A stretch of 58,278 nt of DNA from an uncultured Gammaproteobacteria bacterium (lineage in GTDB: Bacteria; Patescibacteriota; Microgenomatia; UBA10105; UBA927): NCBI GenBank assembly GCA_964449675.1, contig CAYVAR010000003.1:1-58278 (forward strand), written 5' to 3'. Within the stretch, counting starts at the first letter, position 1; every line of letters starts with the position of its first letter. Below, in pieces: positions 34,117-58,278 of this stretch. The notes under the pieces were generated by a model. It did no database searches and was not told the origin of the DNA. It saw only the letters and a program-made list of their open reading frames with translations. The position numbers and the translations under genes were made by a program.

Positions 34117-34985
34117 ACGAAAAAGATAAAAATGAATTAGTTGGACAATATAATGCGATAAGACAGTCTTTAGAACCACAGATTAAGAAACGTTCAATAG
34201 GACTTTCAGAAAAAGATAGGTATCGATTAGTATCAATCGCTGCAGCACGGGAGTTTAGAGCAAGACAAACATCTCTTAAGGATACAGTTACTATTTTATG
34301 GAATAGACGCTATTTCAACGAACAACTTGCAAAGGTGATAAGTCGTAAAACGCGATCAAAAGGAATAAAGGATGTCCAAGAATCCATAGGTTTGGGAAGT
34401 GGGGATGTCCGTGGATTCAAACGATATAATGACACATATGGTCACGATGGAGGTGATGATATTCTCCGGGCAGTTGGTACCACACTCAATAATGGGGGTG
34501 GTTTGAGGAGTACGGATATCGCAGCCCGTATGGGGGGAGATGAATTTAATATCTTGCTATATGATGTCGAACCTCATATAACCGGTGATTATCACTTAAA
34601 TCCTAAAGCAGGTCTTGCAATTGCAGCTCTTCGATTGGTTGAATCAATGCATACGCAACACATTAAATTAAAAGATCAAAGTGACGGGAAAGTAGTTGAT
34701 GAGTCATACCATTTTGATCTTGGTGTAACTTTAATACAAGACACAGATACTCAGGAAAAAGCTATGAAAAGAGCAGATCGTGCTTCGTATGAAGCAAAAA
34801 ATAGGCTATCACCAGATGCTATACAAATTGTAATTGCCAGTGAAGTTGACGGTGTCGACATATTTGAAGTAGCATCCTTTCGTTTATCGAGTCCAGTCGA
34901 GAAGACTCAAACAGGATTAAATCATATCGTTACTTTTGAGCCGACCGAAAATTACCCTCCAAGAATTATTTCTGAACGCGCCTAA
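34113..34985 (+). CDS. GGDEF-domain diguanylate cyclase (stand-alone)
   Basis: GFKRYNDTYGHDGGDDIL, RSTD (RxxD I-site) five residues before GGDEF in ARMGGDEFNILL. 4-nt overlap with the gatB stop. Confidence 0.8.
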   Translation: MNEKDKNELVGQYNAIRQSLEPQIKKRSIGLSEKDRYRLVSIAAAREFRARQTSLKDTVTILWNRRYFNEQLAKVISRKTRSKGIKDVQESIGLGSGDVRGFKRYNDTYGHDGGDDILRAVGTTLNNGGGLRSTDIAARMGGDEFNILLYDVEPHITGDYHLNPKAGLAIAALRLVESMHTQHIKLKDQSDGKVVDESYHFDLGVTLIQDTDTQEKAMKRADRASYEAKNRLSPDAIQIVIASEVDGVDIFEVASFRLSSPVEKTQTGLNHIVTFEPTENYPPRIISERA

Positions 34986-44914: not shown

Positions 44915-45349
44915 ATGGTTTCGTTCTTATTAGAAATAATCACTCCCGAGCGAAAAGCATACGAAGAGGAAGTGGACGAAGTGAGTGTTCCAACTCCTGA
45001 CGGAACAATCGGGGTACTCCCACATCATGAGCCATTATTTAGTAGTCTATCTGATGGAGAAATAAAGATAACGAAAGACAAACGGGAATATTTTCTCGCT
45101 ATCGGTGGAGGATTTATGGAGGTGACCGGTACCAATGTTTCTATTTTAGTTTCTCGAGCAGTTGCCGCCGACGAGCTTAATGAAGCAGAGTTAAAGAAGG
45201 CAGAAGCAGCTGCTAAAGATATTCTAGCCAACAAAGTCAAAGGGACTGAATATGCTACTGCTCAAGCGATATTTCGAAGGTCTCTTTTGGAATTAAAAGT
45301 ATTACGACGACATAAAACCCATCATAGTTCCTCAATAGGAATACACTAA
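44915..45349 (+). CDS. atpC: F0F1 ATP synthase subunit epsilon
   Basis: Last gene of the atp cluster. ITPERKAYEEEVDEVSVPTPDGTIGVLPHHEPL is a typical epsilon beta-sandwich N-terminus. Confidence 0.85.
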   Translation: MVSFLLEIITPERKAYEEEVDEVSVPTPDGTIGVLPHHEPLFSSLSDGEIKITKDKREYFLAIGGGFMEVTGTNVSILVSRAVAADELNEAELKKAEAAAKDILANKVKGTEYATAQAIFRRSLLELKVLRRHKTHHSSSIGIH

Positions 45350-45407: not shown

Positions 45408-45881
45408 ATGAAAGTCGGCGATGTCATGAGCAGGAAGTTGATCACCGTCAATAGCGACGATACACTTCGGCAGTTGTGGAAAATACTTTTTAAAAGCCAT
45501 ATTAACGCTCTTCCCGTTGTTGATAAAAAACAAAAATTGTTGGGTATTATCACCAAAGACGATATACTCAAGTTGATATATCCGGATTACGAAGATCTCA
45601 TCGAAGATTTTTTTTCTATAACAGATTTTGAAGAAATGGAGAAGCGCATTATTGCGCTCGGAAAAAAGAAATCGACAGATATTATGTGTAAGCGTGTCAT
45701 TTATTGCCGAGAAGATTTACCGATTATGCGTGCACTTTCTCGTATGATAGTACGAAATTTTAACCAACTGCCTGTATTATCTGATACTGATAAAGTTGTG
45801 GGTATGGTGACCAAGGGAGATATTTTTTATGCACTATTTCGCTCTCAACTTAAAGGAAATACGTTGTCTCTTAAGAAGTAA
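45408..45881 (+). CDS. CBS-domain pair protein
   Basis: Two CBS repeats: VGDVMSRKLITVNSDDTL...INALPVVD and IMCKRVIYCREDLPI...NQLPVLSDTDKVVGMVTKGDI. Confidence 0.85.
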   Translation: MKVGDVMSRKLITVNSDDTLRQLWKILFKSHINALPVVDKKQKLLGIITKDDILKLIYPDYEDLIEDFFSITDFEEMEKRIIALGKKKSTDIMCKRVIYCREDLPIMRALSRMIVRNFNQLPVLSDTDKVVGMVTKGDIFYALFRSQLKGNTLSLKK

Positions 45882-45884
45882 GAA

Positions 45885-46934
45885 ATGGCAACTCGTCTCT
45901 CAGCGTATCTATATCTTGAAGATGGAGAAATTTTATCTGGAACAAGTTTCGGATATAGGGGAGAAAGCGATGGAGAGGTGGTATTTACGACCGGTATGAC
46001 CGGATATAACGAAAGCGTCACAGACCCTTCGTACGCAGGACAGATACTCGTTTTTACCTACCCCTTAATAGGCAACTACGGAGTTCCACATCCCAAAAAA
46101 ATCAATAAACATCTGCTCGCGAATTTCGAGTCCGAACAGGTTTGGGTGAAGGGAGTAGTAGTTTCGACGGTTTCTCGTTCTTTTGACGGGTGGCTTACTC
46201 GTCAAAAGATACCGGGAATTTCCGGGATTGATACGCGCGCGCTCACCCAAAAGATTCGCGAAAAAGGAGTTCTGCAAGGGAGAATTTCTTCAAAGAAGAA
46301 TCCTTCATTATTCAAAAATAAACCCAATGGAGTGCATCTTGTCGATCAGGTAAGCCTTCATAAAGTAGTTATCTACCATCCAGACGTACCCAACGGTAAG
46401 CATATCGCGCTTATTGACTGTGGGGTCAAGCACGGTATGGTACGTGAGTTACTCCGACTCGGGTATCGTGTGACGCGCGTTCCCTGGAATATAAACCCTC
46501 TTGTTGCGACAGGCAATATCGATGGCATCGTCTGTTCCAACGGTCCTGGTGATCCCAAAGATTGTGCTATCACCATACAACATATTCGATTGGTCTTACA
46601 AAAAAATATTCCTTTTTTAGGCGTCTGCTTAGGCCATCAGTTGCTCGCGCTTGCCATAGGTGCTGACACATATAAACTTCCCTATGGGCATCGTGGCGTC
46701 AATCAACCATGTCAAGACGTCACAAATCATAAAGCTTACATAACGTCACAAAACCATGGGTATGCCGTCAAACGGGGTACCTTGCCTAAAAATTATAGAG
46801 AATGGTTTGTCAATCTCAATGACCTGACGATAGAAGGAATCCGTCACCAGACGAAAAACATTCAAAGCGTTCAATTTCATCCTGAAGGTTGTCCGGGGCC
46901 ATTTGACACGCGAGGGATTTATAAATTTATATGA
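45885..46934 (+). CDS. carA: carbamoyl-phosphate synthase small (glutaminase) subunit
   Basis: VFTTGMTGYNESVTDPSYAGQILVFTYPLIGNYG, catalytic GVCLGHQLL, and HGYAV / FHPE. Confidence 0.95.
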   Translation: MATRLSAYLYLEDGEILSGTSFGYRGESDGEVVFTTGMTGYNESVTDPSYAGQILVFTYPLIGNYGVPHPKKINKHLLANFESEQVWVKGVVVSTVSRSFDGWLTRQKIPGISGIDTRALTQKIREKGVLQGRISSKKNPSLFKNKPNGVHLVDQVSLHKVVIYHPDVPNGKHIALIDCGVKHGMVRELLRLGYRVTRVPWNINPLVATGNIDGIVCSNGPGDPKDCAITIQHIRLVLQKNIPFLGVCLGHQLLALAIGADTYKLPYGHRGVNQPCQDVTNHKAYITSQNHGYAVKRGTLPKNYREWFVNLNDLTIEGIRHQTKNIQSVQFHPEGCPGPFDTRGIYKFI

Positions 46935-49900
46935 ATACTATTTTACTCCTCGGTTCCGGGGCACTCAAAATTGGTGAAGCTGGTGAGTTTGACTATTCGG
47001 GAACGCAGGCAATTAAAGCGCTGAAGGAAGAAGGAAAGCGGGTCGTTTTGGTAAATCCTAATGTCGCAACGATCCAGACGTCTGAGGGACTCGCGGATCA
47101 AATATATTTTCTTCCGGTAAACGCTTATTTTGTGGAAAAAGTTATAGAAAAGGAAAAACCTTCCGGTATCCTCCTATCATTCGGCGGTCAGACCGCATTA
47201 AATTGCGGTATCGAACTTTATCGGACAGGGGCGCTTATTAGAAAAAACGTCGCTATACTCGGCACGCCCATGGAAGCAATTCTGGCAACCGAGGATCGCA
47301 AGCTCTTTTCTTTACGCCTTAGAGCTATTGGTGTGCCTACAGCCAAAGGTAAAACAGTCGGAAGTGTCGATGAGGGAGTGAGGTACGCTCGTTTACTTGG
47401 ATTTCCGGTAATGATGCGTTTGGGATTTGCCCTCGCAGGATCGGGATCTGGGGTTGCCAAAAACGAAAAAGATCTCATTGACCTATTGACCAAGGCATTT
47501 GCTACAGGCGATCAGCTGATAATCGAAGAGGACTTAACCGGCTGGAAGGAAGTCGAGTATGAAGTCGTAAGAGATAAAGATGACAACTGTATCACGGTCT
47601 GTAACATGGAAAACATGGATCCTGTGGGTATCCATACCGGTGAATCGATTGTCGTAGCCCCATCGCAGACATTGAATAATTCCCAATATTACTCGCTTCG
47701 TCAAACATCGATTGATGTCACTTGCGCGCTTGGCATAGTCGGAGAGTGCAATATCCAGTTTGCGATTCATCCTGATACGAACGAAACACGAGTGATTGAG
47801 GTAAATGCACGGCTATCCCGATCATCAGCACTTGCCTCCAAAGCCACGGGATACCCTCTTGCGTATATTGCTGCCAAACTAGCTTTAGGTAAAACCTTAC
47901 CAGAACTTAAAAATCTCATTACACAAAAAACCAGCGCGTTTTTTGAACCCGCACTTGACTATGTCGTCGTCAAAATTCCCCGATGGGATTTGGACAAATA
48001 TACGCATGTGGACGCGGGTATCGGCAGTGAAATGAAAAGTGTCGGCGAAGTTATGAGTATTGCGCGGACGTTTCCTGAGGCTATACAAAAGGGATCGCGG
48101 ATGCTTGGTGACGGATATGAAGGGGTTATAGATAAAGGCTACGGGCAACTTTCCCGGTCAAAGATTCTCGCAAAGCTCAAAAAACCAGACTCTATGCGGC
48201 TTTTTACTATCCTTTCGGCTTTACGCAGTGGTATTTCCCTATCGCAAATCAAAAGGCTTACGCACATAGATAGATGGTTTCTTGAACAGTTTGCCGATAT
48301 TGTTTCCGTCTATAGACGACTAGACACGACGGCGCGTCTGACCCGGCAACTTCTATCCACTGCCAAACAGTACGGTTTTTCTGATAAGCAAATTGCTGAT
48401 ATCCGTGGCATGTCGCCCTCTGCCGTGCGCAAAAGGCGGTTATCCCTGGGTGTTAGACCCGTGACAAAGCACATCGATACGCTTGCAGCTGAGTTTCCCG
48501 CATATACGAATTACCTCTATATGACCTATAACGGTACTAAAAACGATCACAGCCCCAAGTCAAAAGAAAAGAAAGTAATCGTTTTGGGATGCGGTCCCTA
48601 TGCAGTTGGCACATCGGTCGAATTTGACTGGTGTGCGGTCAGCGCCGTTGCCGCTATCCGGGATAAAGGCATAAAAACAGTACTTATCAACTGCAATCCC
48701 GAGACCGTATCAACTGATTTTGACACAGCAGACTATCTGTATTTTGAAGAACTCACGCTTGAACGAGTGCTTGATATATATGAGGGAGAGGTATCGCCCT
48801 TTCTGCTTGCCGTCGGTGGTCAGATAGCCAATAACCTCGCCCCCAAACTCTCTAAACTTGATATACCGATACTCGGAACCAAACCGGAAAATATTTTTCG
48901 TGCAGAACACCGAGAAAGTTTTAGTAAGCTTCTGGATAGGCTGAATATACATCAGCCAATATGGAAAAAAGTATTTTCTATCGCCCAGTCACGAACGAGC
49001 GCGCGCACTATTGGTTTTCCTATTATCCTGCGCCCCTCTTTTGTCCTTTCCGGAAAATCCATGAGCGTTGTTGACTCAGAGGAATCCTTGACCACCTACC
49101 TAAAGCAGTACAAGATGAGCTTACGGGAATACCCATTGGTGATGAGTAAGTTTCTCAAAGATGTGACCGAGTGTGATGTTGATGCAGTCGCAAGAAATGG
49201 AAAGATTGTATTATCTGCCATTTCCGAACACGTGGAGCATGGCGGCGTACATTCAGGTGATTCAACGATGATGCTGCCGCCCGTGACCATCTCGGAAGTC
49301 ACCAAAGGAGAGATTCACCGAGTAGCCGGTCGCATTGCTCGCGCGCTTGAAATCAGTGGTCCTTTTAATATCCAGTTGCTTATTGCTGACGATACGCCGT
49401 ATGTTATAGAATGCAACATTCGTGCGTCGCGAAGCTTTCCCTTTGTCAGTAAAGTGCTGCATAGTAATTTTATTGCTCACGCGACAAACATTATGCTCGG
49501 GCAAACGGTGAGGATAAAGCAAGATAATGTAGCCACTTATCAAGCAGTTAAAGTACCACAGTTTTCTTTTTTGAAACTCAAAGGTGCAGATCCGGTGTTA
49601 CGGGTAGAGATGAGCTCAACTGGTGAAGTGTGCGCAATCGGACGGGATGTTTTTGAATCGTATCTCACGGCAATTCTTGCTACCGGGCAAAAATACCCGC
49701 TTCAAAAAGCGGTGTTTTTGAGCCTTGGTGGCGGCAGGGGGAAATTACAATTTCTTAAGGGAGCGACGTTCTTGTCAAAATCCGGGTATATGATTTATAG
49801 TACAGCAGGGACGCATCTGTTTCTTAAAGAAAATAGTATTGCATCAACCAGAGTCGGGAAGATGTATGAGGGAACCCATCCCAATGTTTTTGATCTACTG

Positions 49901-50131
49901 AACAAAAAACAGATTGACTTTGCCGTAGTTATCCCGGAGCATTATACGGACCGCGGCGCGACCGAGTTTCGAAAATCCGTAACTGACGGATATCTTATAC
50001 GAAGAAAAGCAATAGATATGGGAATACCTGTATGTACCAATGCACCATCAGCAACACTTTTTGTCGAGGCAATACGCCGCTATAGCCTTGACGATATTGC
50101 CATAAAATCGTGGAATGAATATGTCTCGTAA
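46931..50131 (+). CDS. carB: carbamoyl-phosphate synthase large subunit
   Basis: 1066 aa with duplicated ATP-grasp halves ([20 protein letters not shown]; [16 protein letters not shown]) and a C-terminal MGS-like domain. Confidence 0.95.
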
Positions 50132-51065
50132 TCCTTTTTATCTTCAAGACATTCTAAGCGCTGACCAGTTTATCAAAAGTGAGCTTCTTCTCGTTGTCAG
50201 AACCGCTGACCGGATGAAAAAGCTCGTAGAGACAAAAGGCGGAGAGGAAACCCTCAAAGGTAAGATCATGACGGCGCTTTTTTACGAGCCGTCAAGCCGA
50301 ACCTTCGGATCGTTTATCGCCGCGATGCAACGCTTGGGTGGTGGCGTCATACCCATCCAGGGAGTCCAATATTCTTCTGTTTCGAAAGGAGAAACGCTAG
50401 CCGATACCGTGCGCACGTTTGGCAGTTATTCTGACATTGTCGTTTTGCGTCACCCAGAGGTGGGGTCGGCGAAGATCGCTGCGGAATTTTGCGATAAACC
50501 CGTCATCAATGCCGGTGACGGCGTAGGAGAGCACCCTACCCAGGCGCTTCTGGATTTTTATACGATTACCCGTCATTTTCAAGATATTTCCGGCTTAACG
50601 GTTACTATGGTAGGGGACCTTCTCAACGGCCGCACGATTCACTCACTCTCTAAATTACTGTCTTTGTATCGACCGTTGACGTTAAACCTCGTATCGCCGG
50701 AAATCCTGCGTTTGCCACAAGAGCTTTTGCGTATACTAAAAGATCGTAAGATGCGTGTGCACGAAACGGAAAACCTTGGTGACGTGATCGGAGATTCGGA
50801 CGTACTGTATGTCACGCGTGTACAAAAAGAACGTTTTACGGACTTAACCTCATATGAACGGCTCAAGCACCAGTATATCGTAACGCCCACACTCCTCCGT
50901 AAAGCAAAAAAAACGGCAATCATCCTGCATCCCCTGCCGCGCGTCGGAGAAATCACTATGGACGTAGATTTAGATCCGCGCGCCCTCTACATACGCGAAC
51001 AGATGGTCAACGGTATGTATATCCGCATGGCGCTTCTGTCTCTCATATTAACTAAAAGAGCATAA
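50115..51065 (+). CDS. pyrB: aspartate carbamoyltransferase catalytic subunit
   Basis: [12 protein letters not shown] (STRT motif), HPTQALLD, and HPLPR. Confidence 0.95.
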
Positions 51066-51099: not shown

Positions 51100-51867
51100 A
51101 TGACCAAAAACTCTACGAAAAAACCTGTTGAAAAACAATCACTTATTAAAAGGATGTGTATTCCATTTGATGGCGATACTTTGAAGATTGAATATGATTC
51201 ACGTGTCTATGCTCCGACCAGCCACAGTTCTCTTTTGGGTATTTATAATTTTTCCATTCATATTGATGATAGGCTTGGGGCTGTCGTTGGCACGGGAACA
51301 GGCATTGACGCAATCGCAATGGTTAAGAAGGGTATGCCCAGGGTTATTGCTACAGACATAGATGCACATGCTTTAGAAATTGCCCGACGAAACGCGCACT
51401 TCAATCACGTTTCTGAAAAGATTATATTTAAACAAGGAGACATGTTTGATCCACTGGCTACGTTTATCCCAGAAGGACAGCGCTTTGACGTGATCTTGTC
51501 CAACCCTCCGTGTCTTCCTGTACCAGAAAGCCTGTCAGATGATTATCCGGTAAGTCTCGACGGTGGCCCGGACGGAACGAAGTATCTCGCTTTTGTCATT
51601 GAACAGGCAAGGACGTATCTCAATAAACCCAAGGGACGATTGTATATTAATTTTGGATCTACCTCAAACCCCAAAAAATTATTTTCAATCCTTGATACGT
51701 ATTATTTCTGGAAAGAAACCTGCCGCATTACGATTCCCTTTTCTGAACAGTTTCTCCTTTTGTGGGATTATCTGGGAGAGTTACGCGGGCAAGGGAAGGC
51801 AGAGTTTTGGGAGGAACATGGAGTGCCCATGCGTTGGTACGCTACCGCAGAAGCGAGGCCAAAGTGA
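51100..51867 (+). CDS. class I SAM-dependent methyltransferase (HemK/PrmC-like, NPPC motif)
   Basis: VGTGTGIDAIAM (motif I), ATDID, ILSNPPCLP (NPPY-like), and DGGPDG. The stop overlaps the next gene's GTG start (GTGA). Confidence 0.7.
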   Translation: MTKNSTKKPVEKQSLIKRMCIPFDGDTLKIEYDSRVYAPTSHSSLLGIYNFSIHIDDRLGAVVGTGTGIDAIAMVKKGMPRVIATDIDAHALEIARRNAHFNHVSEKIIFKQGDMFDPLATFIPEGQRFDVILSNPPCLPVPESLSDDYPVSLDGGPDGTKYLAFVIEQARTYLNKPKGRLYINFGSTSNPKKLFSILDTYYFWKETCRITIPFSEQFLLLWDYLGELRGQGKAEFWEEHGVPMRWYATAEARPK

Positions 51868-53528
51868 AATACCAAACAGTTAAAACGGATGTTCTTGTTA
51901 TCGGTGCAGGGGGAGCGGGTTTGCGGGCGGCGATAGAGGCAAAGTCGCTTGGGGTAAACGTTCTGCTTTTGGGAAAAGAAGTATTAGGATGTGCCCATAC
52001 CGGCATGGCGATGGGTGGCATGAACTGCGCGCTTGTTTCTCCAGCGACACCAGCTTACCACGGAGAAATCACCAACGAAGGCGGCTATTTCATCAATAAT
52101 AGAAAGATGGTGAAGGCATTTGTTGATGAAATGCCAGGGCGCATACATGATTTGGAAAACTATGGCGTCCTATTTGATCGCACCGAAGACGGTAATTTCT
52201 ATGTATGGGCAGGACCGAAGCAAAAATATCCACTTAACGTCTGCGTGGGTGATTACACGGGAAGAGAGATGATGCAAGGGCTGGTTGATCAGGTGAGAAA
52301 ACTTCATATTTCGTATAGCGATGAGTTTTTTATCTCAAGACTCCTCGCCCAAAGCGGCCGTGTGGTTGGTGCTGTCGGATACAATTTGAAATCAGGACAT
52401 CTTACTGCTTTTTCTGCCAAAGCGGTAATTTTAGCAACCGGTGGGGCGGGTCGGATGTATCAAGTGACGACCAACGCTGCTTCTAACACCGGTGATGGGT
52501 ACGCGATGGCTTTGGATGTTGGCTGTGATCTCGTGGACATGGAAATGGTTCAGTTCCACCCAACCGGTATGGCATTCCCTGCGTCAAGTAGAGGGGTACT
52601 CGTGACGGAAAAAGTCCGCGCGCACGGAGGCATTCTTCGTAATGCCAAGGGAGAACGGTTCATGAGTAAGTACTTCCCCAAAGAAATGGAACTTGCCAAG
52701 CGCGATGAAGTCAGCCGGTCCATCTATCAGGAAGTGGCAGCAGGAAACGGAACCGCTCATCAGGCGGTATACCTCCATGTCGACCATTGGACCAAAGACA
52801 AGATCCTCGAGCAGATTCCGGATGTGTACGAGCAGTACCATGCGGTGGGAGTAGATATCTCCAAGGTGCCGATGGAGGTGTATCCGTCGATGCATCATAT
52901 GATGGGAGGGATTAAGGTGAACGAATGGGGGGAAAGTAGCGTTATAGGTCTTTATGCTGCCGGTGAAGTGACGGGAGGAGTGCATGGGGCCAATCGTTTA
53001 GGAGGAAACTCTATCGCTGAAGGACAGGTATTCGGAAGACGGGCGGCTCTTCGCTCTACCCGATATGTTGGAAAAATTAAGCACACCCGCCTGCCGACTG
53101 CGCAAATAGAAAAGGAGCGGGAGAGTATACGCAGTTTCCTTGACAGGAAAACGGGGATTACTCCGTATGAGATTGAGAGCGAGCTTAAAAAAGTCATGTG
53201 GGAAGACGTAGGGATATTTCGCGATGAAGCAAGCCTCACCCAGGCGCATAGGCGGGTGGCATGGTTGAAAAAAGAAGCAACTCGTATGAGAACTCGTCAT
53301 AAAGATAGAGAGCGAAACAGGGATTTACAAGATTGCCTGGAAGTTAACAATATGATCAAAACCGCTCAAGTAGTGATTGAAGCGGCGATAATGCGAAAAG
53401 AAAGCCGGGGCGCCCACAGTAGAACCGATTACCCTGACACCAAAAAACAATGGGAAAAAAACATTGTCGTTTCTCAAAAATCCAGTAATCTTGAGATCCG
53501 TACTATTGATACGGTCAAACTCAAATAG
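51864..53528 (+). CDS. succinate dehydrogenase/fumarate reductase-type flavoprotein subunit (FrdA/SdhA-like)
   Basis: DVLVIGAGGAGLRAA (FAD), AHTGMAMGG (His at the covalent-FAD position), QFHPTG, ERF...RDEVSR, HHMMGG, GANRLGGNS, and ESRGAHSR. The GTG start at 51864 is preferred over the track start at 51762. Confidence 0.85.
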   Translation: MKYQTVKTDVLVIGAGGAGLRAAIEAKSLGVNVLLLGKEVLGCAHTGMAMGGMNCALVSPATPAYHGEITNEGGYFINNRKMVKAFVDEMPGRIHDLENYGVLFDRTEDGNFYVWAGPKQKYPLNVCVGDYTGREMMQGLVDQVRKLHISYSDEFFISRLLAQSGRVVGAVGYNLKSGHLTAFSAKAVILATGGAGRMYQVTTNAASNTGDGYAMALDVGCDLVDMEMVQFHPTGMAFPASSRGVLVTEKVRAHGGILRNAKGERFMSKYFPKEMELAKRDEVSRSIYQEVAAGNGTAHQAVYLHVDHWTKDKILEQIPDVYEQYHAVGVDISKVPMEVYPSMHHMMGGIKVNEWGESSVIGLYAAGEVTGGVHGANRLGGNSIAEGQVFGRRAALRSTRYVGKIKHTRLPTAQIEKERESIRSFLDRKTGITPYEIESELKKVMWEDVGIFRDEASLTQAHRRVAWLKKEATRMRTRHKDRERNRDLQDCLEVNNMIKTAQVVIEAAIMRKESRGAHSRTDYPDTKKQWEKNIVVSQKSSNLEIRTIDTVKLK

Positions 53529-53530
53529 CC

Positions 53531-54193
53531 ATGAATATACAGGTTCGTATATCGCGAACGAAAGGCAGGAGGCAAATATATCAGACCTATCGTATCTCCT
53601 ACGAAAAAGGGATGACGGTACTCGACGGCCTCATGTTCGTTCATAGGACGCTTGATCCGACCCTTGCCTTTCGCTGGGAATGCAGGCAGGGAATCTGTGG
53701 GACGTGTGGCGTCATGCTTAATGGAACGCCTGTCCTATCGTGCATGACTCAAATTGACAAACGACGCAGCAATGTGATTGCCCCGCTTGCCAATTTTCCG
53801 GTTGAAAAAGATCTCATCGTCAATTTGGCGCCAATTCTTACGCGATATGGGAAAGTCAAGCCGTATCTGGATAAAATCCATATGGTTATGTTGACCAAGA
53901 CAGAGGCAAACAAGTCCAAGCCATTTCGCAAATGCATTGAGTGCGGCTGCTGCATCGCTGGTTCGCCAACAGTTGCTAAAAACCCGTCAATCCATTTAGA
54001 TCCCATGGCGCTTGTGAAAATCGCTCGGTATGTGACCGATCCGCGTGATGGTGTCAATCGGAAAGCGCTTCTTGGTAGCGATGAAATTACCAGATACTCT
54101 TCAAAAGAACTTCGCCGACTAGAGGCGTTGTGTCCGAGAGGTGTTCCCATAGAAAAAGCTGTAGAGATTTTGCGTGCAAAACGCTATGTATAA
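53531..54193 (+). CDS. succinate dehydrogenase/fumarate reductase-type iron-sulfur subunit (FrdB/SdhB-like), cysteine-depleted
   Basis: A 2Fe-2S motif CRQGICGTC...C, then CIECGCC and a single LCPRGVP. 9 Cys in total. Confidence 0.75.
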   Translation: MNIQVRISRTKGRRQIYQTYRISYEKGMTVLDGLMFVHRTLDPTLAFRWECRQGICGTCGVMLNGTPVLSCMTQIDKRRSNVIAPLANFPVEKDLIVNLAPILTRYGKVKPYLDKIHMVMLTKTEANKSKPFRKCIECGCCIAGSPTVAKNPSIHLDPMALVKIARYVTDPRDGVNRKALLGSDEITRYSSKELRRLEALCPRGVPIEKAVEILRAKRYV

Positions 54194-55550
54194 CGGTATT
54201 ACTAATGCGCGCATTGTAACGCCGCAAGGCATCAAGCGCGGATCTATCATATTTAGTCCGGACGGGACAATAGATAAAATCATTAATCAAAATATGCCTG
54301 TATCAAAAGGTCAGTATTATGATGCTCATGACGGCTACGTACTTCCCGGTCTTATAGAAACACACGGTCACTTTCGTGAACCAGGGCTTGAACATAAGGA
54401 AACCATACGAGATGGTTCTCGTGCGGCACTCGCCGGAGGGTTTACCACGGTGTTTGACATGCCCAATACCAAGCCACCGACGACGACGGTCAAGCTCCTT
54501 CATGAGCAGATTGATCGGTACAAAAAACATTCATACTGTGATTTTGCAATAAATTTTGGTACCTCTGTTGATCACATCGAAGAACTTGAAAAGGTAGATC
54601 CAGCAGAAATTACTGGGGTGAAGGTCTTTACCGCCGGACATCAGACGACGCCGACAACAATCCCTACATTATCTAATCAAGCGCGCATTTGGGAAATCGC
54701 TGCACGACGCGGATTTCCGGTGCTTGTGCATGCGGAAAATCAAGATCTGGTAACGGCGCGAGAAGCCGCATATCAAAAGTCCGGTCGACATGACATGCTT
54801 GCGTATTCTCAAGCACGTAATGAACTGGTTGTCGAGATGGCAGCGTGGGAAGCAGTGATATTAGCAAAGTACTATAAAACAAAGCTCTGGATTCTTCATG
54901 CGTCAACCAGAGGCGAATTTGATGGGATTGAATACGCAAAAGCTCATGGCATACAAGCTGGTGGTGAAGTAACCGGATATCAACTCTTTTTTACTACGAA
55001 GGATTATAAAAAATTTGGAACACTTCTGAAAGTGAGTCCTGCGCTTCGATCACCAGCGGTCAATCGTGTACTTTGGCAGATGGTACGTTCGGGAGTCGTT
55101 GACGGAATTTGCTCTGAGCATACACCCCATGCGCTGTCAGAAAAACAGGGTGATATCTGGAAAGCAGCTAGCGGCATGCCCAATATCCAGGAAACCGTAC
55201 CGGCATTTATTACCGGATGGATACGAGAATTTGGAAAGCCTACACTTGAGGAAGGTCTTGTGTGTCTGGCGCGATGTGCTTCGACCAATGTGGCTAATTT
55301 TTTTGGATACCAGCAAAAATCCGGTATACGAAAAGGAAATGACGCAGACCTTATGATCATAGACGTTGATAAGAAATGGAAAGTAAAAAAAGGAGACTTA
55401 TTTACCAAACTTCGCTGGTCGGTCTACGAAGGCATGGAGCTCATCGGAAGACCGGTCGCGACGTTTTTGCGGGGATCCTTAGTGTATCAACAGGGAATTA
55501 TTGTTGAGCCAAAACATGGGCAGTGGATAAAAAAAGGAGGAAGCGCATGA
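54186..55550 (+). CDS. pyrC: dihydroorotase
   Basis: LIETHGHFREPG (HxH), GGFTTVFDMPNTKPP, VFTAG / VHAEN, and a C-terminal amidohydrolase fold. 8-nt overlap with the upstream gene. Confidence 0.85.
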   Translation: MYNGITNARIVTPQGIKRGSIIFSPDGTIDKIINQNMPVSKGQYYDAHDGYVLPGLIETHGHFREPGLEHKETIRDGSRAALAGGFTTVFDMPNTKPPTTTVKLLHEQIDRYKKHSYCDFAINFGTSVDHIEELEKVDPAEITGVKVFTAGHQTTPTTIPTLSNQARIWEIAARRGFPVLVHAENQDLVTAREAAYQKSGRHDMLAYSQARNELVVEMAAWEAVILAKYYKTKLWILHASTRGEFDGIEYAKAHGIQAGGEVTGYQLFFTTKDYKKFGTLLKVSPALRSPAVNRVLWQMVRSGVVDGICSEHTPHALSEKQGDIWKAASGMPNIQETVPAFITGWIREFGKPTLEEGLVCLARCASTNVANFFGYQQKSGIRKGNDADLMIIDVDKKWKVKKGDLFTKLRWSVYEGMELIGRPVATFLRGSLVYQQGIIVEPKHGQWIKKGGSA

Positions 55551-56860
55551 GTAAATCATATGCAGGGCAACAGACCTTTAGTGCAGTAAAAAATTTTCCC
55601 TTTTCTATACACAAAGCGCGTATTGAGCTTGTTTACGCAATATCTGAAATAAAACGAGCAGCAGCCGTGGTTCACGGACGTATCGGTGAACTTGATAAGG
55701 ATATTGCTCATGCCATTGTTTCATCGTGCGATGAGGTACTTCGTGGTAAACATGATGACCAATTTGTCACTCCGGCCCTACAGGGAGGGGCCGGAACGTC
55801 GATGAACATGAACGTCAATGAAGTTATAGCCAATCGGGCAACGGAAATCCTTCGCTCTTCTGGCAACAATCTCAGCGTCCATCCCAACGATCATGTCAAC
55901 CGGTCACAATCGACCAACGACGTCAATCCTACTGCGCTTAAACTTGTCTGTCGCACGCTCGGGCAGGAGCTTTTGAGAAGTATTGATGCGGTCGTAAAAG
56001 AATTTTATACACTCGAAAAACGCTATAGTAAAGTGCCAAAACTTGCTCGTACGCATTTGCAGGATGCCATACCTATAACATACGGCGATGAGTTTTCCTC
56101 ATATGCAGCAATTTTTAGCCGTAACGGTGACCGAATCAATCACGCTCTTTCCTATATGAACGATTTAAGCTTAGGTGGTACGGCTGTAGGCAATGGTCTG
56201 AATGCGTCTTCTGCATATCGGGATGCCGTCTACAAAGAACTTCGCAAGAGAGTTGATAAACATATCCATCCCGCAACGAATTTCATGGCACAAACGAGCA
56301 GCCAAACGGATTTTGTGATGCTTTCTCAAGCGATTGTCGCTCTTACCCTTGACGCGTCAAAAATTGCAAGCGATATTCGACTGCTGTCAAGTGGACCAGC
56401 CGGAGGAATTGGAGAAATAAAGCTTACCGAGCTTCAGCACGGGTCATCGATCATGCCCGGCAAAGTTAATCCGGTCATTGCGGAAACCGTCAATCAGACC
56501 TATTTTCTTGTCTCGGGCAATAACCATAGCATAGAGGCGGCAGCGCACGGGGCGCAGCTTGAGCTTGCCAATATGTTTCCGATACTTGCTGATCGCCTCA
56601 TCGAATCGATGAAGCTGACCAGCGAAGTACTGACGCAATTTGCCAGGCAATGTCTCGCGACTCTTACCGTCAACCAAAAACGTGCAAAGGAAATTCTTGA
56701 AAAAACCACAGCGTACTCAACACTATTGTCCCCAATCTTGGGTTACGACAGGGTAGCTACCCTGGTTAAAGAGGCCCTTAATACAGGAAAGACGCTTCGT
56801 GAATTGGTACTTGAGAAGCATTTACTTACCGATGAGCAATATAACAATATAGTAACATAG
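55547..56860 (+). CDS. class II fumarase/aspartase family lyase, aspartate ammonia-lyase-like
   Basis: SQSTNDVNPTA and the signature GSSIMPGKVNPVIAE. The V-I/V after NP is the pattern I associate with aspartases; fumarases usually read NPTQ. ATGA overlap with pyrC. Confidence 0.75.
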   Translation: MSKSYAGQQTFSAVKNFPFSIHKARIELVYAISEIKRAAAVVHGRIGELDKDIAHAIVSSCDEVLRGKHDDQFVTPALQGGAGTSMNMNVNEVIANRATEILRSSGNNLSVHPNDHVNRSQSTNDVNPTALKLVCRTLGQELLRSIDAVVKEFYTLEKRYSKVPKLARTHLQDAIPITYGDEFSSYAAIFSRNGDRINHALSYMNDLSLGGTAVGNGLNASSAYRDAVYKELRKRVDKHIHPATNFMAQTSSQTDFVMLSQAIVALTLDASKIASDIRLLSSGPAGGIGEIKLTELQHGSSIMPGKVNPVIAETVNQTYFLVSGNNHSIEAAAHGAQLELANMFPILADRLIESMKLTSEVLTQFARQCLATLTVNQKRAKEILEKTTAYSTLLSPILGYDRVATLVKEALNTGKTLRELVLEKHLLTDEQYNNIVT

Positions 56861-56864
56861 GAGT

Positions 56865-57683
56865 ATGACGTTTCAACAAAAACTTGATGCGATCGTTGTA
56901 AAAAACAACTCTCTGGTTTGTGTGGGGCTGGATAGCGACATAAAGAAGCTTCCAAAGCATGTAGAGAGCGAGAAATATCCTCAGTTTTCTTTCAATAAAG
57001 CCGTTATCGATGCGACGCATGATCTGGTTTGTGCCTATAAGCCTAATAGTGCATTTTACGAAGCCCGGGGTGTCGATGGAATACGTGAACTGAAGATGAC
57101 GTGTGATTATTTACATACGAAATATCCTAATATTCCAATCATTCTTGACGCCAAACGGGCAGACATTGGTAGTACCAATGAAGGATATGTCACCTATGCT
57201 TTTGACTATCTCGGCGTTGATGCGATCACCCTTCACCCCTATTTGGGTCGCGAAGCAATCCAACCTTTTCTTAATAGAAAAGATAAGGGTTGTATTATTC
57301 TATGCCGCACCTCAAATCCAGGCGCTGGTGAATTTCAAGATTTAACGTCTAGTGCTGAGCCGTTGTATAAAGTAGTTGCGAGGAAAGTTGTTAGTGAGTG
57401 GAACAAAAACGATAACTGTTTACTCGTTGTTGGTGCAACCTACCCTGAAGAGCTTGCCGAAGTGAGAAAGCTTGCCGAAGACATGACGTTTCTCGTTCCT
57501 GGTATTGGCGCGCAAGGAGGGGATATAGAAAAAACAGTTAAATCAGGATTAAATTCTACAAAAGCCGGAATGATTATTAATTCATCGCGCGGTATTATTT
57601 TTGCGAGCGCAGAAAAAGATTTTGAAAAAAGAGCGAGACAAGAAGCTACACTACTTAAGGATCAAATAAACCAATGTAGATAA
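56865..57683 (+). CDS. pyrF: orotidine 5'-phosphate decarboxylase (type 2)
   Basis: VGLDS, ILDAKRADIGST, and PGIGAQGG. Confidence 0.9.
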   Translation: MTFQQKLDAIVVKNNSLVCVGLDSDIKKLPKHVESEKYPQFSFNKAVIDATHDLVCAYKPNSAFYEARGVDGIRELKMTCDYLHTKYPNIPIILDAKRADIGSTNEGYVTYAFDYLGVDAITLHPYLGREAIQPFLNRKDKGCIILCRTSNPGAGEFQDLTSSAEPLYKVVARKVVSEWNKNDNCLLVVGATYPEELAEVRKLAEDMTFLVPGIGAQGGDIEKTVKSGLNSTKAGMIINSSRGIIFASAEKDFEKRARQEATLLKDQINQCR

Positions 57684-57691
57684 GGAGGGTT

Positions 57692-58278
57692 ATGAAGGAC
57701 GTAAAAAATAAAATTTTAGATATTCTTATAAAGGTCGGTGCAGTGATAACCAATAGTCATTTTGTCTATACATCGGGCAAACACGGGAGTGTGTATATTA
57801 ACAAAGACGCGCTGTATCCGCATACAGAGGAGACTTCGCGAGTCGGAGAGATGTTTGCCCAAAAGTTTAAGGATAAGGCTATTGATGTGGTGGCAGGTCC
57901 GGCGCTTGGCGGTATTATACTTTCCCAATGGACTGCCTATCACTTGTCAAAACTTAGGGGCAAAGAGGTGCTTGGCGTTTATACTGAAAAAACACCAGAG
58001 AAAAACCAGGTATTCACCCGAGGATACGATAGATTGGTCAAGGGCAAAAACGTTTTAGTCATTGAGGATTTGACGACAACCGGTGGATCGGTTCGGAAAG
58101 TTGTCGACAGTGTGAAGGCCGCAGGTGGCCATGTGGTAGCGGTGTGCGTCATGGTCAATCGGGACCCGGTTAAGGTGACCTCGGAAGTCGTCGGTGGACC
58201 ATTTTCCGCGCTTGGGGTACTTGAAGCTGAAGCGTTTGATGAAGCAGATTGTCCGCTTTGTAAAAAGAATGTCCCTAT
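57692..58278 (+). CDS. pyrE: orotate phosphoribosyltransferase (partial; runs off the window end)
   Basis: Not in the ORF track because no stop is reached. RBS AAGGAGGG then the ATG at 57692. FVYTSGKHGSVYINKD and PRPP motif VLVIEDLTTTGGS. Confidence 0.8.
   Translation, partial: MKDVKNKILDILIKVGAVITNSHFVYTSGKHGSVYINKDALYPHTEETSRVGEMFAQKFKDKAIDVVAGPALGGIILSQWTAYHLSKLRGKEVLGVYTEKTPEKNQVFTRGYDRLVKGKNVLVIEDLTTTGGSVRKVVDSVKAAGGHVVAVCVMVNRDPVKVTSEVVGGPFSALGVLEAEAFDEADCPLCKKNVP

What the first reader, a model, noticed from the sequence alone, without database searches (positions are those of the whole stretch)
51864..56860. Pyrimidine operon lacks pyrD/pyrK and instead carries a soluble fumarate-reductase-like pair plus an aspartase-like lyase
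Seen: on one strand, with overlaps or gaps under 40 nt, the order is CBS, carA, carB, pyrB, MTase, FrdA-like, FrdB-like, pyrC, AspA-like, pyrF, pyrE. No dihydroorotate dehydrogenase (PyrD) or PyrK ORF is present, and no membrane-anchor (sdhC/D, frdC/D) genes either. The flavoprotein keeps all the dicarboxylate-site motifs I can recognise (HPTG, the ERF...RDEVSR block, HHMMGG, GANRLGGNS, ESRGAH). Established: the pathway needs a DHO-oxidising step between PyrC and PyrE. Class 1A DHODH uses fumarate as acceptor. In Firmicutes pyrK-pyrD occupies this operon position. Aspartase interconverts fumarate plus ammonia and aspartate, the PyrB substrate. Inference, three alternatives: (a) a fumarate hub, in which the lyase makes aspartate for PyrB and the Frd-like enzyme recycles succinate and fumarate for a fumarate-dependent DHODH encoded elsewhere; (b) the flavoprotein/Fe-S pair is a non-homologous replacement for the DHO-oxidising step; (c) an aspartate-oxidase-like role. 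I consider this the best candidate in the window for an undescribed functional module.
Basis: partly seen in the sequence, partly recalled or inferred. Interest (0 to 1): 0.75.

Follow-up and report, generated by a model that had tools for sequence, protein, structure and literature searches.

The report
Complex-II-type flavoprotein replacing PyrD
A pyrimidine-biosynthesis operon of an uncultured Patescibacterium has no dihydroorotate dehydrogenase and instead carries a succinate-dehydrogenase-like flavoprotein, always next to an unusual dihydroorotase whose catalytic aspartate is a glutamate; comparison with about 160 related loci suggests this pair is an undescribed way of making orotate.

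Summary
On one strand, tightly packed, lie CBS-carA-carB-pyrB-MTase-frdA-like-frdB-like-pyrC-aspA-like-pyrF-pyrE, with no pyrD, pyrK or membrane-anchor gene.

The linkage is not chance:
- The flavoprotein belongs to a bacterial clade found in Patescibacteria, Ktedonobacteria (including two cultured species) and Aggregatilineales. It sits directly upstream of pyrC in 36 of 40 loci with enough downstream sequence.
- No PyrD was found in any of these loci.
- Every linked PyrC (59/59) has Glu in place of the catalytic Asp.
- Five closely related Ktedonobacteria-type operons (CarB ~80% identical) lack the flavoprotein. They carry pyrD after pyrF, and their PyrC has the canonical Asp.

The flavoprotein keeps all succinate/fumarate catalytic residues and the covalent-FAD histidine. 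The Phe (Glu121 in NadB) that lines substrate C2 is replaced by Gly/Ser, and a clade-specific Lys, Tyr and Met appear. The window's FrdB-like protein lacks the three [3Fe-4S] cysteines, and many relatives have no FrdB at all.

Best reading: this is a non-homologous replacement of PyrD. It may oxidise carbamoyl-aspartate (ureidosuccinate) before ring closure by the Glu-type PyrC. I could not check whole genomes for pyrD, and nothing here is biochemically tested. I found no published description.

The parts
45408..45881 (+). CBS-pair protein, first gene of the cluster (after atpC)
   Evidence: Pfam CBS, 109.5 bits. The same atpC-CBS-carA arrangement is in L001, L022, L025, L026, L042, L046 and L166. 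Its role is not established.
45885..46934 (+). carA, carbamoyl-phosphate synthase small subunit
   Evidence: TIGR01368, 397 bits against a cut-off of 307.
46931..50131 (+). carB, carbamoyl-phosphate synthase large subunit
   Evidence: 1066-aa ORF. Homologous genes in related loci carry the CPSase_L domains. Overlaps carA by 4 nt.
50115..51065 (+). pyrB, aspartate carbamoyltransferase (canonical)
   Evidence: TIGR00670, 341 bits against a cut-off of 237.
51100..51867 (+). HemK/MTQ2-like methyltransferase inserted between pyrB and the flavoprotein; probably a passenger
   Evidence: NCBIfam PRK14968-type and Pfam PrmA/MTS hits. Present at this position only here and in the nearest relative L166, and absent from the other loci.
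51864..53528 (+). Complex-II-type flavoprotein (554 aa), proposed PyrD replacement
   Evidence: PF00890 plus PF02910. Below the curated cut-offs of TfrA, SdhA/FrdA and NadB. AF2 model pLDDT 84.5; Foldseek TM 0.87-0.92 to SdhA/FrdA. H45, H232, T248, E249, R280, H344 and R378 are conserved. Clade-specific G117, K119, Y131 and M343. Member of the pyr-linked clade.
53531..54193 (+). SdhB/FrdB-like Fe-S protein (220 aa) with [2Fe-2S] and [4Fe-4S] ligands but no [3Fe-4S] ligands
   Evidence: PF13085, TIGR00384. Matches only positions 3-216 of the 488-position TfrB model. Cys pattern CCCC/CCC.C kept; SdhB C159, C206 and C212 replaced by S, S and L.
54174..55550 (+). Dihydroorotase-family amidohydrolase with catalytic Asp replaced by Glu (E315, 'SEHTPH') and 'E-x-HGH' metal motif
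   Evidence: TIGR00857, 282.6 bits against a cut-off of 279. PDB alignments show Glu opposite the Asp of 1GKR, 2GWN and 3E74. 59/59 flavoprotein-linked PyrC share it. The start may be the ATG at 54186.
55547..56860 (+). Aspartate ammonia-lyase-like protein
   Evidence: PF00206 plus PF10415. NF008909, 480.5 bits against a cut-off of 510. Motifs GGAGTS, QSTNDV and GSSIMPGKVNP match E. coli AspA rather than FumC. The ATG at 55547 overlaps the pyrC stop by 4 nt.
56865..57683 (+). pyrF, OMP decarboxylase
   Evidence: TIGR02127, 245.6 bits against a cut-off of 110.6.
57692..58278 (+). pyrE, orotate phosphoribosyltransferase (cut by the window end)
   Evidence: Frame translation with a PRTase motif, preceded by AAGGAGGG. 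60-88% identical to the gene at the same position in related loci.

Best explanation
The flavoprotein (51864-53528), here with its two-cluster Fe-S partner (53531-54193), is the dehydrogenase of this organism's de novo pyrimidine pathway. It is a non-homologous replacement of PyrD and works together with a co-evolved dihydroorotase variant (54174-55550, catalytic Glu instead of Asp) to make orotate for PyrE and PyrF. SHOWN: the gene set and order; the clade-wide linkage to pyrC; the complementary distribution with PyrD; the coupled Asp/Glu switch in PyrC; the conserved catalytic residues and altered pocket residues; the loss of the [3Fe-4S] ligands. INFERRED: the chemistry. My preferred mechanism has about 55-60% of the weight within this explanation. 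PyrB makes N-carbamoyl-L-aspartate (2-ureidosuccinate). The flavoprotein binds it like a 2-substituted succinate, using both intact carboxylate clamps, with the ureido group in the cavity opened by Phe->Gly next to K119, W115 and Y131. It removes hydride to the covalently bound FAD and a proton via R280, giving ureidofumarate. The Glu-type PyrC then closes the ring directly to orotate. The other ~40% goes mostly to the usual order (PyrC makes dihydroorotate, the flavoprotein oxidises it). Electrons leave through FAD -> [2Fe-2S] -> [4Fe-4S] to an unidentified soluble acceptor, or to fumarate or O2 at the flavin itself, as in NadB and class 1A DHODH. Many relatives have no Fe-S subunit, so the direct route must be sufficient in them. 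The aspartase-like lyase links the aspartate and fumarate pools. It could supply fumarate as electron sink, or regenerate aspartate for PyrB from fumarate.
For: (1) Linkage. A genome scan with the flavoprotein alignment returned 73 loci. Of the 52 with a bacterial-clade flavoprotein, 49 carry pyr genes. In 36 of the 40 with at least 2.5 kb of downstream sequence, pyrC lies within 3.5 kb downstream. This holds in Patescibacteria, Ktedonobacteria (including Thermosporothrix hazakensis and the complete genome of Ktedonosporobacter rubrisoli) and Aggregatilineales, in different operon orders. (2) No PyrD hit in any of the 78 flavoprotein loci with three PyrD queries. Ktedonobacteria operons read pyrB-carA-carB-flavoprotein-pyrC-pyrE-pyrF and contain no other candidate. 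(3) Complementarity. Five operons (L091, L095, L101, L164, L165) have the same order and CarB ~80%, PyrB ~72% and PyrC 66-70% identical to the flavoprotein-type Ktedonobacteria operons. They lack the flavoprotein and have pyrD right after pyrF. (4) Coupled PyrC change. 59/59 linked PyrC have Glu at the catalytic position, 5/5 PyrD-type relatives have Asp, and 60/60 more distant PyrC have Asp. In a bootstrapped NJ tree the Asp/PyrD clade (99%) is nested inside the Glu subfamily (98%) next to the Ktedonobacteria Glu-type (79%). Among 1.84 billion cluster representatives the Glu form occurs only in the ~8 best-scoring clusters. (5) Pocket. Catalytic H232, T248, E249, R280, H344, R378 and the FAD-linking H45 are invariant. 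The residue equivalent to FrdA F116, SdhA F119 and NadB E121 is Gly/Ser in all 48 pyr-linked sequences but Phe in the sister archaeal clade. K119, Y131 and M343 are clade-specific. (6) The pyr-linked proteins form one clade, sister to archaeal TfrAB-like pairs that are not pyr-linked. (7) In close relatives of the window organism (PyrC ~71% identical) the FrdB-containing and FrdB-less flavoprotein types replace each other at the same operon position.
Against: No whole genome could be searched, so a pyrD elsewhere in these genomes is not excluded. Nothing is biochemically tested. All residues that clamp a C4-dicarboxylate are intact, so plain succinate/fumarate chemistry cannot be excluded from sequence alone. 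The Asp/Glu-PyrD/flavoprotein coupling may rest on as few as two evolutionary events, and the nesting has only 79% NJ bootstrap support. No electron acceptor was identified, and no conserved redox partner gene lies in the operons. Four loci carry the flavoprotein without an adjacent pyrC (L035, L037, L050, L078). The order-swap variant rests on indirect arguments only; ureidofumarate is not a known metabolite to my knowledge.
Confidence: 0.75

Rival explanations
1. Same replacement, conventional order. The Glu-type PyrC is an ordinary dihydroorotase, and the flavoprotein is a dihydroorotate dehydrogenase that binds the ring with one carboxylate clamp and the ring carbonyl at the other. This is a sub-variant of the best explanation; its probability is counted inside the 0.75.
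For: It is the simplest change to the pathway. The PyrC keeps the metal ligands and the carboxylate-binding Arg, Asn and His (R68, N98, H319) and just passes the general dihydroorotase model. Hydride abstraction from C6 and proton abstraction from C5 of dihydroorotate map onto SdhA chemistry (established mechanism; my inference).
Against: It gives no reason why PyrC's catalytic Asp and its neighbours switch to Glu/Ser/Thr with the flavoprotein and switch back to the canonical T-D-H-A with PyrD. All cationic residues of both carboxylate sites, and the covalent-FAD His typical of hard C-C dehydrogenation, are retained.
Confidence: 0.3
2. Fumarate hub. FrdAB is a soluble succinate/fumarate oxidoreductase, and the lyase an aspartase, that service a fumarate-dependent PyrD encoded elsewhere.
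For: The dicarboxylate site is intact. An aspartase-like lyase is co-operonic in 12 of the genome-scan loci, all Patescibacteria. Class 1A DHODH uses fumarate (established).
Against: Most pyr-linked flavoproteins have no FrdB and no lyase (Ktedonobacteria, several Patescibacteria). The flavoprotein and PyrD replace each other in colinear operons. The pocket and PyrC changes are unexplained. Ktedonobacteria are aerobes that would not need a dedicated hub (my knowledge).
Confidence: 0.08
3. NadB-like L-aspartate oxidase/dehydrogenase, or a TfrAB-type fumarate reductase, that sits in the operon for regulatory or historical reasons without acting on a pyrimidine intermediate.
For: Public annotations call the relatives 'L-aspartate oxidase' or 'thiol-driven fumarate reductase flavoprotein subunit'. 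TfrA is the best NCBIfam model (594.9 bits).
Against: The curated cut-offs of TfrA (718), NadB (452.75) and SdhA/FrdA (567.3) are all missed. NadB Glu121 is Gly here, and the covalent-FAD His absent from NadB is present. FrdB lacks the TfrB C-terminal half. True TfrAB-like archaeal relatives are not pyr-linked. No nadA or nadC is nearby.
Confidence: 0.05

Closest known systems
Complex II flavoprotein / Fe-S subunits (SdhAB, FrdAB) and archaeal thiol:fumarate reductase TfrAB
   Same: Same fold (Foldseek TM 0.87-0.92). Same catalytic His/Thr/Glu/Arg/His/Arg set and FAD-linking His. The partner has the [2Fe-2S] and [4Fe-4S] ligands. TfrA is the best-scoring curated model, and the archaeal TfrAB-like clade is the sister group.
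   Different: Below every curated cut-off. No membrane anchors. The [3Fe-4S] ligands are lost in the window's subclade, and FrdB is absent in another subclade. No TfrB CCG/HdrB-like half. Phe->Gly/Ser plus K119, Y131 and M343 at the substrate pocket. Embedded in pyr operons instead of TCA or respiratory contexts.
L-aspartate oxidase NadB
   Same: A stand-alone flavoprotein of the same family that oxidises a 2-substituted succinate (L-aspartate) and can pass electrons to fumarate or O2 at the flavin. This is a functional precedent for the FrdB-less forms (established knowledge).
   Different: NadB has no covalent-FAD His (Ser45) and uses Glu121. Here the residues are His45 and Gly117. TIGR00551 scores 357.9 against a cut-off of 452.75. 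Structural similarity is lower (TM 0.72-0.78). Linked to pyr genes, not nad genes.
Dihydroorotate dehydrogenases, classes 1A, 1B and 2 (PyrD, PF01180)
   Same: The proposed pathway role is the same: the two-electron oxidation that yields orotate. In Ktedonobacteria-type operons PyrD and the flavoprotein are mutually exclusive.
   Different: No homology: FMN TIM barrel versus FAD Rossmann/complex II fold. Possibly a different substrate (carbamoyl-aspartate) and therefore a different order of steps.
Type I dihydroorotase and cyclic amidohydrolases (hydantoinase, allantoinase)
   Same: Amidohydrolase fold. HxH, Lys, His, His metal ligands and the Arg/Asn/His carboxylate triad are conserved. Just passes TIGR00857.
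   Different: The catalytic Asp is replaced by Glu in all members linked to the flavoprotein. 'PHHL' becomes 'GYQL' and 'D-x-HxH' becomes 'E-x-HGH'. The best PDB match is an L-hydantoinase, at only 192.6 bits.

Membership tests
SdhA/FrdA flavoprotein of complex II (TIGR01812) | Score at or above the curated family cut-off | tested here: not met
   491.7 bits against a cut-off of 567.3.
SdhA/FrdA flavoprotein of complex II (TIGR01812) | Covalent-FAD His and the catalytic His/Thr/Glu/Arg/His/Arg set | tested here: met
   Window H45, H232, T248, E249, R280, H344 and R378 align with FrdA H44, H232, T244, E245, R287, H355 and R390.
SdhA/FrdA flavoprotein of complex II (TIGR01812) | Partner Fe-S subunit with three clusters, and membrane anchor subunits | tested here: not met
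   SdhB C159, C206 and C212 equivalents are S, S and L. Gene junctions leave no room for anchor genes, and none appear in related loci.
Thiol:fumarate reductase TfrAB | TfrA model cut-off | tested here: not met
   NF004900, 594.9 bits against a cut-off of 718.
Thiol:fumarate reductase TfrAB | TfrB of about 490 aa with a C-terminal thiol-oxidising (HdrB-like) half | tested here: not met
   The 220-aa protein matches only positions 3-216 of the 488-position model. Archaeal relatives have FrdB of 520-560 aa.
L-aspartate oxidase NadB (TIGR00551) | Model cut-off; Glu121; non-covalent FAD | tested here: not met
   357.9 bits against a cut-off of 452.75. Gly117 lies at the Glu121 position, and His45 where NadB has Ser.
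Dihydroorotate dehydrogenase PyrD (PF01180) | Homology to the FMN TIM-barrel family | tested here: not met
   No PF01180 hit on any operon protein. No tblastn hit in the window. The claim is 'works like', not 'is a member'.
Dihydroorotate dehydrogenase PyrD (PF01180) | Catalyses formation of orotate in the de novo pathway | not testable with these tools
   Only comparative evidence is available.
Type I dihydroorotase PyrC (TIGR00857) | Model cut-off and metal ligands | tested here: met
   282.6 bits against a cut-off of 279.05. H64, H66, K150, H186 and H242 are conserved in 95% or more of the 123 aligned sequences.
Type I dihydroorotase PyrC (TIGR00857) | Catalytic Asp on strand 8 ('[ST]DH[AS]PH') | tested here: not met
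   'SEHTPH' in the window and in all 59 flavoprotein-linked PyrC. Asp in 65 others.
Aspartate ammonia-lyase (NF008909 / TIGR00839) | Model cut-offs | tested here: not met
   480.5 against 510, and 415 against 681. NF008909 is missed only narrowly.
Aspartate ammonia-lyase (NF008909 / TIGR00839) | Signature motifs that separate aspartase from fumarase C (GGAGTS, QSTND, SS-loop GSSxMPxKxN) | tested here: met
   Alignment with E. coli AspA and FumC.

The most novel reading that the evidence does not exclude
The de novo pyrimidine pathway runs in a different order in these lineages. A complex-II-type flavoprotein dehydrogenates N-carbamoyl-L-aspartate (ureidosuccinate) to ureidofumarate, and a Glu-type 'dihydroorotase' cyclises that directly to orotate. 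Dihydroorotate would then not be an intermediate at all, and PyrD would be replaced by a non-homologous enzyme acting one step earlier.
Probability: 0.4. Interest if true: 0.92.

Novelty: new variant of a known kind. Interest (0 to 1): 0.85.

Why it matters
As far as I know, every described organism makes UMP by the same six steps, and every known dihydroorotate dehydrogenase (classes 1A, 1B, 2) belongs to one homologous family. A complex-II-type flavoprotein doing this job would be the first non-homologous solution to that step. If the order-swap reading is right, it would also be the first variant of the pathway with a different intermediate.

It would close a gap in metabolic reconstructions of Patescibacteria and Ktedonobacteria, where these genes are currently labelled 'L-aspartate oxidase', 'fumarate reductase' or 'FAD-binding protein'. 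It would show how an anaerobe without quinones handles the pathway's only redox step.

The module occurs in cultured Ktedonobacteria, and E. coli pyrC and pyrD mutants are standard hosts, so the idea can be tested directly.

Tried and rejected
- I first read the clade's 'TGRE' motif as the equivalent of NadB Glu121. Counting the E. coli sequence showed that Glu121 lies in 'TREGGHS' and aligns with window G117, so I dropped that argument.
- Eight full-text literature searches found no description of this module. The terms covered DHODH with fumarate reductase, Patescibacteria/CPR, Ktedonobacter, Microgenomates, aspartate oxidase, 'carbamoyl aspartate dehydrogenase', 'ureidosuccinate dehydrogenase', non-homologous isofunctional enzymes and others.
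- Rfam found only four tRNAs in the window.
- I looked for a conserved redox partner among the extra genes inserted in related operons. They are phosphoribosyltransferases, a HAD hydrolase, a methyltransferase, an alpha/beta hydrolase and an AbiEii toxin.
- The AF2 model and Foldseek confirmed the complex II fold, but the tools give no coordinates, so no docking or pocket measurement was possible.
- A first bootstrap run with Biopython's distance calculator timed out. I redid it with a vectorised Kimura distance.
- As an indirect test, I compared contig lengths for the top 120 Ktedonobacteraceae PyrD clusters and the top 120 flavoprotein clusters. No contig length is shared. The K. rubrisoli chromosome and the 5.6-Mb T. 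hazakensis contig appear only in the flavoprotein list. This is weak evidence, because the PyrD list stops at 74% identity.

Full report
**1. What is in the window**

The 3' quarter of the window carries, on the + strand, an F-type ATP synthase operon ending with atpC (44915-45349). A tightly packed cluster follows:
- CBS-pair protein (45408-45881)
- carA (45885-46934)
- carB (46931-50131)
- pyrB (50115-51065)
- HemK/MTQ2-like methyltransferase (51100-51867)
- SdhA/FrdA-family flavoprotein (51864-53528)
- SdhB/FrdB-like Fe-S protein of 220 aa (53531-54193)
- dihydroorotase-family protein (54174-55550)
- aspartase-like lyase (55547-56860)
- pyrF (56865-57683)
- pyrE (57692 to the window end)

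Junctions range from a 20-nt overlap to a 34-nt gap, and four are start/stop overlaps. There is no room for membrane-anchor genes. No PyrD-like sequence is detectable anywhere in the 58 kb with class 1A, class 1B-type or class 2 queries (best E = 0.11). The rest of the window is housekeeping: IleRS, FtsW, ParB, glycosyltransferases, MurT/GatD, GatA/GatB, DnaE and the ATP synthase.

**2. Whose genome, and what the flavoprotein resembles**

The closest homologues of the flavoprotein (66-78% identity) come from Patescibacteria of the Microgenomates group (Roizmanbacteria, Gottesmanbacteria). The protein scores best against the archaeal thiol:fumarate reductase TfrA model, but it is below the curated cut-offs of TfrA, SdhA/FrdA and NadB. 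An AlphaFold2 model (pLDDT 84.5, pTM 0.88) superposes on complex II flavoproteins with TM 0.87-0.92, and less well on NadB at 0.72-0.78. Every residue that binds and converts the C4-dicarboxylate in E. coli FrdA (H232, T244, E245, R287, H355, R390) is present, as is the histidine that carries covalent FAD (H44).

**3. The linkage to pyr genes is conserved across distant lineages**

A scan of one genome per GTDB species with an alignment of the flavoprotein returned 73 loci. I mapped the window's proteins and three PyrD references onto them.
- Fifty-two loci belong to a bacterial clade, and 49 of these contain pyr genes.
- In 36 of the 40 with enough downstream sequence, pyrC follows within 3.5 kb, usually directly.
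- The carriers are Patescibacteria, Ktedonobacteria (including the cultured Thermosporothrix hazakensis and the complete genome of Ktedonosporobacter rubrisoli) and Aggregatilineales.
- The operon orders differ. For example, Ktedonobacteria have pyrB-carA-carB-flavoprotein-pyrC-pyrE-pyrF, and Aggregatilineales have pyrB-pyrF-flavoprotein-frdB-pyrC.
- None of these loci contains a PyrD.

In a neighbour-joining tree all pyr-linked flavoproteins form one clade. Its sister group consists of Asgard and Bathyarchaeia proteins that are not pyr-linked. Their Fe-S partners are 520-560 aa long, as expected for TfrB.

**4. The Fe-S subunit is reduced and dispensable**

- In Aggregatilineales the FrdB-like protein keeps all eleven cluster cysteines.
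- In the window's Patescibacteria subclade the three [3Fe-4S] ligands are replaced: C159 by Ser/Ala and others, C206 by variable residues, and C212 by Leu/Ile (SdhB numbering). The [2Fe-2S] and [4Fe-4S] ligands remain.
- In Ktedonobacteria and several Patescibacteria there is no FrdB at all.
- Close relatives of the window organism (PyrC ~71% identical: L042, L046, L057) carry the FrdB-less flavoprotein type at the same operon position.

The two types therefore look functionally interchangeable, and the core function appears to reside in the flavoprotein.

**5. Complementary distribution with PyrD**

A metagenome scan with an alignment of the linked PyrC proteins returned 80 loci. Those of the same PyrC subfamily fall into two kinds.
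- Loci with the flavoprotein upstream, which have no PyrD.
- Three loci (L091, L095, L101) with the same order pyrB-carA-carB-pyrC-pyrE-pyrF but no flavoprotein, and a class-1-type pyrD immediately after pyrF.

L101 is a close relative of the flavoprotein-type Ktedonobacteria. Against K. rubrisoli (L052) its identities are CarB 81%, PyrB 72%, PyrC 67%, PyrE 73% and PyrF 68%; over four Ktedonobacteria-type loci the ranges are 77-81, 70-73, 66-70, 58-74 and 48-72%. Homologues of its PyrD at 74% identity or more are named Ktedonobacteraceae. Two further contexts (L164, L165) show the same PyrD-type operon without the flavoprotein. This is the classical pattern of non-orthologous gene displacement.

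**6. PyrC changes together with its partner**

The window PyrC aligns with solved hydantoinase, dihydroorotase and allantoinase structures along its whole length. However, it has Glu (E315, 'SEHTPH') opposite their catalytic Asp.
- All 59 PyrC proteins linked to the flavoprotein share this Glu.
- All five PyrD-type relatives have 'TDHAPH'.
- All 60 more distant PyrC proteins in the sample have Asp.
- Only five positions separate the Glu-type from its nested Asp-type relatives. Three of them flank the catalytic residue (S314/T, E315/D, T317/A), and one lies in the 'PHHL' motif, which is 'GYQL' in the Glu type.

With 200 bootstrap replicates the subfamily is monophyletic (98%), the Asp/PyrD clade is monophyletic (99%), and that clade groups with the Ktedonobacteria Glu-type inside the subfamily (79%). 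The most economical reading is a reversal to the canonical motif when PyrD took over. In a search of 1.84 billion cluster representatives, the Glu form is confined to the ~8 best-scoring clusters, and then the canonical Asp form takes over abruptly.

**7. The substrate pocket of the flavoprotein is altered in a specific way**

The catalytic residues are invariant, but four positions at or near the dicarboxylate site are fixed in all 48 pyr-linked sequences and differ from the archaeal sister clade and from E. coli FrdA and SdhA.
- The residue equivalent to FrdA F116, SdhA F119 and NadB E121 is Gly or Ser. It is Phe in the sister clade.
- The Gly/His two positions later is Lys (K119).
- Arg/Lys becomes Tyr (Y131).
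- Ala/Cys before the catalytic His becomes Met (M343).

From my knowledge of the NadB and complex II literature, the Phe/Glu position lines the substrate next to C2. In NadB it contacts the amino group of aspartate. I could not measure distances, so this remains an inference. A Phe-to-Gly change flanked by an invariant Lys and Trp would open a polar cavity for a larger C2 substituent.

**8. Mechanism**

What is shown: the flavoprotein and PyrD are alternatives in related operons; the flavoprotein travels with a PyrC variant; it keeps succinate-dehydrogenase chemistry and has a remodelled pocket.

What is inferred: it supplies the oxidation that yields orotate. Two orders of steps are possible.
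- **Conventional order.** PyrC makes dihydroorotate and the flavoprotein oxidises it. This is chemically reasonable, because hydride loss from C6 and proton loss from C5 mirror succinate oxidation.
- **Swapped order, which I favour slightly.** Carbamoyl-aspartate is 2-ureidosuccinate, a dianionic 2-substituted succinate. It would use both intact carboxylate clamps, as aspartate does in NadB. Trans-dehydrogenation gives ureidofumarate, whose geometry (carboxyl carbons trans, N and C4 cis) is that of ring-opened orotate. The Glu-type PyrC would then cyclise a planar substrate directly to orotate.

Three arguments favour the swapped order, all indirect:
- It explains why PyrC's catalytic residue tracks the partner enzyme.
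- It explains why all cationic clamp residues, and the covalent-FAD histidine needed for hard C-C dehydrogenation, are retained.
- It explains why the gene always sits between pyrB/carB and pyrC.

**9. Electron acceptor and the lyase**

No acceptor is identified. FrdB-less forms must hand electrons to a small molecule at the flavin (fumarate or O2), as NadB and class 1A DHODH do (established for those enzymes). In the window's form the electrons can also leave through [2Fe-2S] and [4Fe-4S] to an unknown soluble partner. The missing [3Fe-4S] is the cluster that faces the quinone site in complex II, which fits a soluble enzyme in an organism without quinones (the latter from my general knowledge of Patescibacteria).

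The lyase has aspartase rather than fumarase signatures. In the genome-scan loci it occurs only in Patescibacteria operons that also carry FrdB. One metagenome locus (L085) has the lyase without FrdB, beside a flavoprotein gene with an internal deletion. The lyase may provide fumarate as electron sink from imported aspartate, or regenerate aspartate from the fumarate released in purine synthesis. The data do not decide between these.

The methyltransferase between pyrB and the flavoprotein is found only here and in the nearest relative. It is probably a passenger.

**10. Rivals**

- **Fumarate hub.** It fails to explain the FrdB-less and lyase-less operons, the swap with PyrD, and the PyrC change.
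- **NadB-like or TfrAB-like role unrelated to pyrimidines.** It conflicts with the missed family cut-offs, Gly at the Glu121 position, the truncated Fe-S partner, and the fact that the true TfrAB-like relatives are not pyr-linked.

**11. Limits**

- I could not search any whole genome for pyrD.
- The trees are neighbour-joining only.
- The coupling of Glu with the flavoprotein and Asp with PyrD may reflect only two evolutionary events.
- Four loci have the flavoprotein without an adjacent pyrC. One of these (L037) and a pyrC-pyrE locus without the flavoprotein (L089) look like two halves of a split operon in one lineage.
- All functional statements are predictions.

**12. Novelty**

Public records name these proteins L-aspartate oxidase, fumarate reductase subunit A, thiol-driven fumarate reductase flavoprotein, or FAD-binding protein. 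Eight full-text searches found no paper that connects them with pyrimidine synthesis. I rate the finding as a new variant of a known kind: a universal pathway with a non-homologous enzyme at its redox step, and possibly a different intermediate. The interest is high, because the module occurs in cultured bacteria and can be tested by complementation and simple enzyme assays.

Noticed in passing
window 51100-51867 (+); also L166 9211-9978: A HemK/MTQ2-like (archaeal-type N5-glutamine) methyltransferase is wedged between pyrB and the flavoprotein, with a 4-nt stop/start overlap. It is conserved at this position in the nearest relative but absent from all other related operons. An unrelated methyltransferase sits between pyrE and pyrF in a PyrD-type Ktedonobacteria operon (L164 8336-9154), and another between frdB and pyrC in L013.
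   Followed up: partly
window 45408-45881 (+): A stand-alone CBS-pair protein directly precedes carA, after atpC, in the window and in several Microgenomates loci (L001, L022, L025, L026, L042, L046, L166). It could be a nucleotide-sensing regulator of the operon's enzymes.
   Followed up: no
L085 6530-7984: In one metagenome locus the flavoprotein gene has an internal deletion of about 70 codons that removes the catalytic His region ('MHHMMGG'). The neighbouring Glu-type pyrC and the lyase are intact. This may be a decaying copy or an assembly artefact.
   Followed up: partly
P0043 (773 aa), P0080 (769 aa): Some relatives encode the flavoprotein and the Fe-S protein as one fused polypeptide (PF00890 + PF02910 + PF13085). 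This supports a physical complex of the two.
   Followed up: no
L053, L055, L058-L070, L073, L075, L079, L081: Asgard (Hermod-, Prometheo-, Thor-, Odin-, Hodarchaeota) and Bathyarchaeia genomes carry the sister clade: a flavoprotein plus a 520-560-aa TfrB-like Fe-S protein with all cluster cysteines, not linked to pyr genes. These look like thiol:fumarate-reductase-type enzymes outside methanogens.
   Followed up: partly
L004 / L005 8015-9974: Two tandem OTCase-family genes precede the flavoprotein in one Patescibacteria lineage. One is a normal pyrB (47% identity to the window's), the other only 28% identical. An MGS-like 125-aa gene lies between pyrC and the lyase.
   Followed up: no
L037 and L089: In one Ktedonobacteria lineage the operon seems to be split exactly between the flavoprotein and pyrC. 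L037 has pyrB-carA-carB-flavoprotein with no pyrC downstream. L089 has a Glu-type pyrC-pyrE preceded by a MurJ-like gene.
   Followed up: partly
window 1773-2453 (-): An IS200-like Y1 transposase ORF (Pfam Y1_Tnp, E = 2.8e-7) lies next to a 492-aa ORF (84-1562, -) that has no Pfam match.
   Followed up: no
window 11763-14081 (-): A 772-aa protein combines a GH130/GH32-like N-terminal beta-propeller with a lipase/thioesterase-like (LCAT, Palm_thioest) C-terminal half. This is an unusual domain combination.
   Followed up: no
window 23649-25472 (+) and 34113-34985 (+): A PolX-type (DNA polymerase beta thumb, HhH) protein, and a GGDEF diguanylate cyclase placed between gatB and dnaE. Both are somewhat unexpected in a small Patescibacteria genome.
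   Followed up: no
L164, L165, L095, L101: The PyrD of the PyrD-type Ktedonobacteria operons is annotated as the class 1B catalytic subunit, but no PyrK-like gene is adjacent. Its electron acceptor is therefore also unclear.
   Followed up: no
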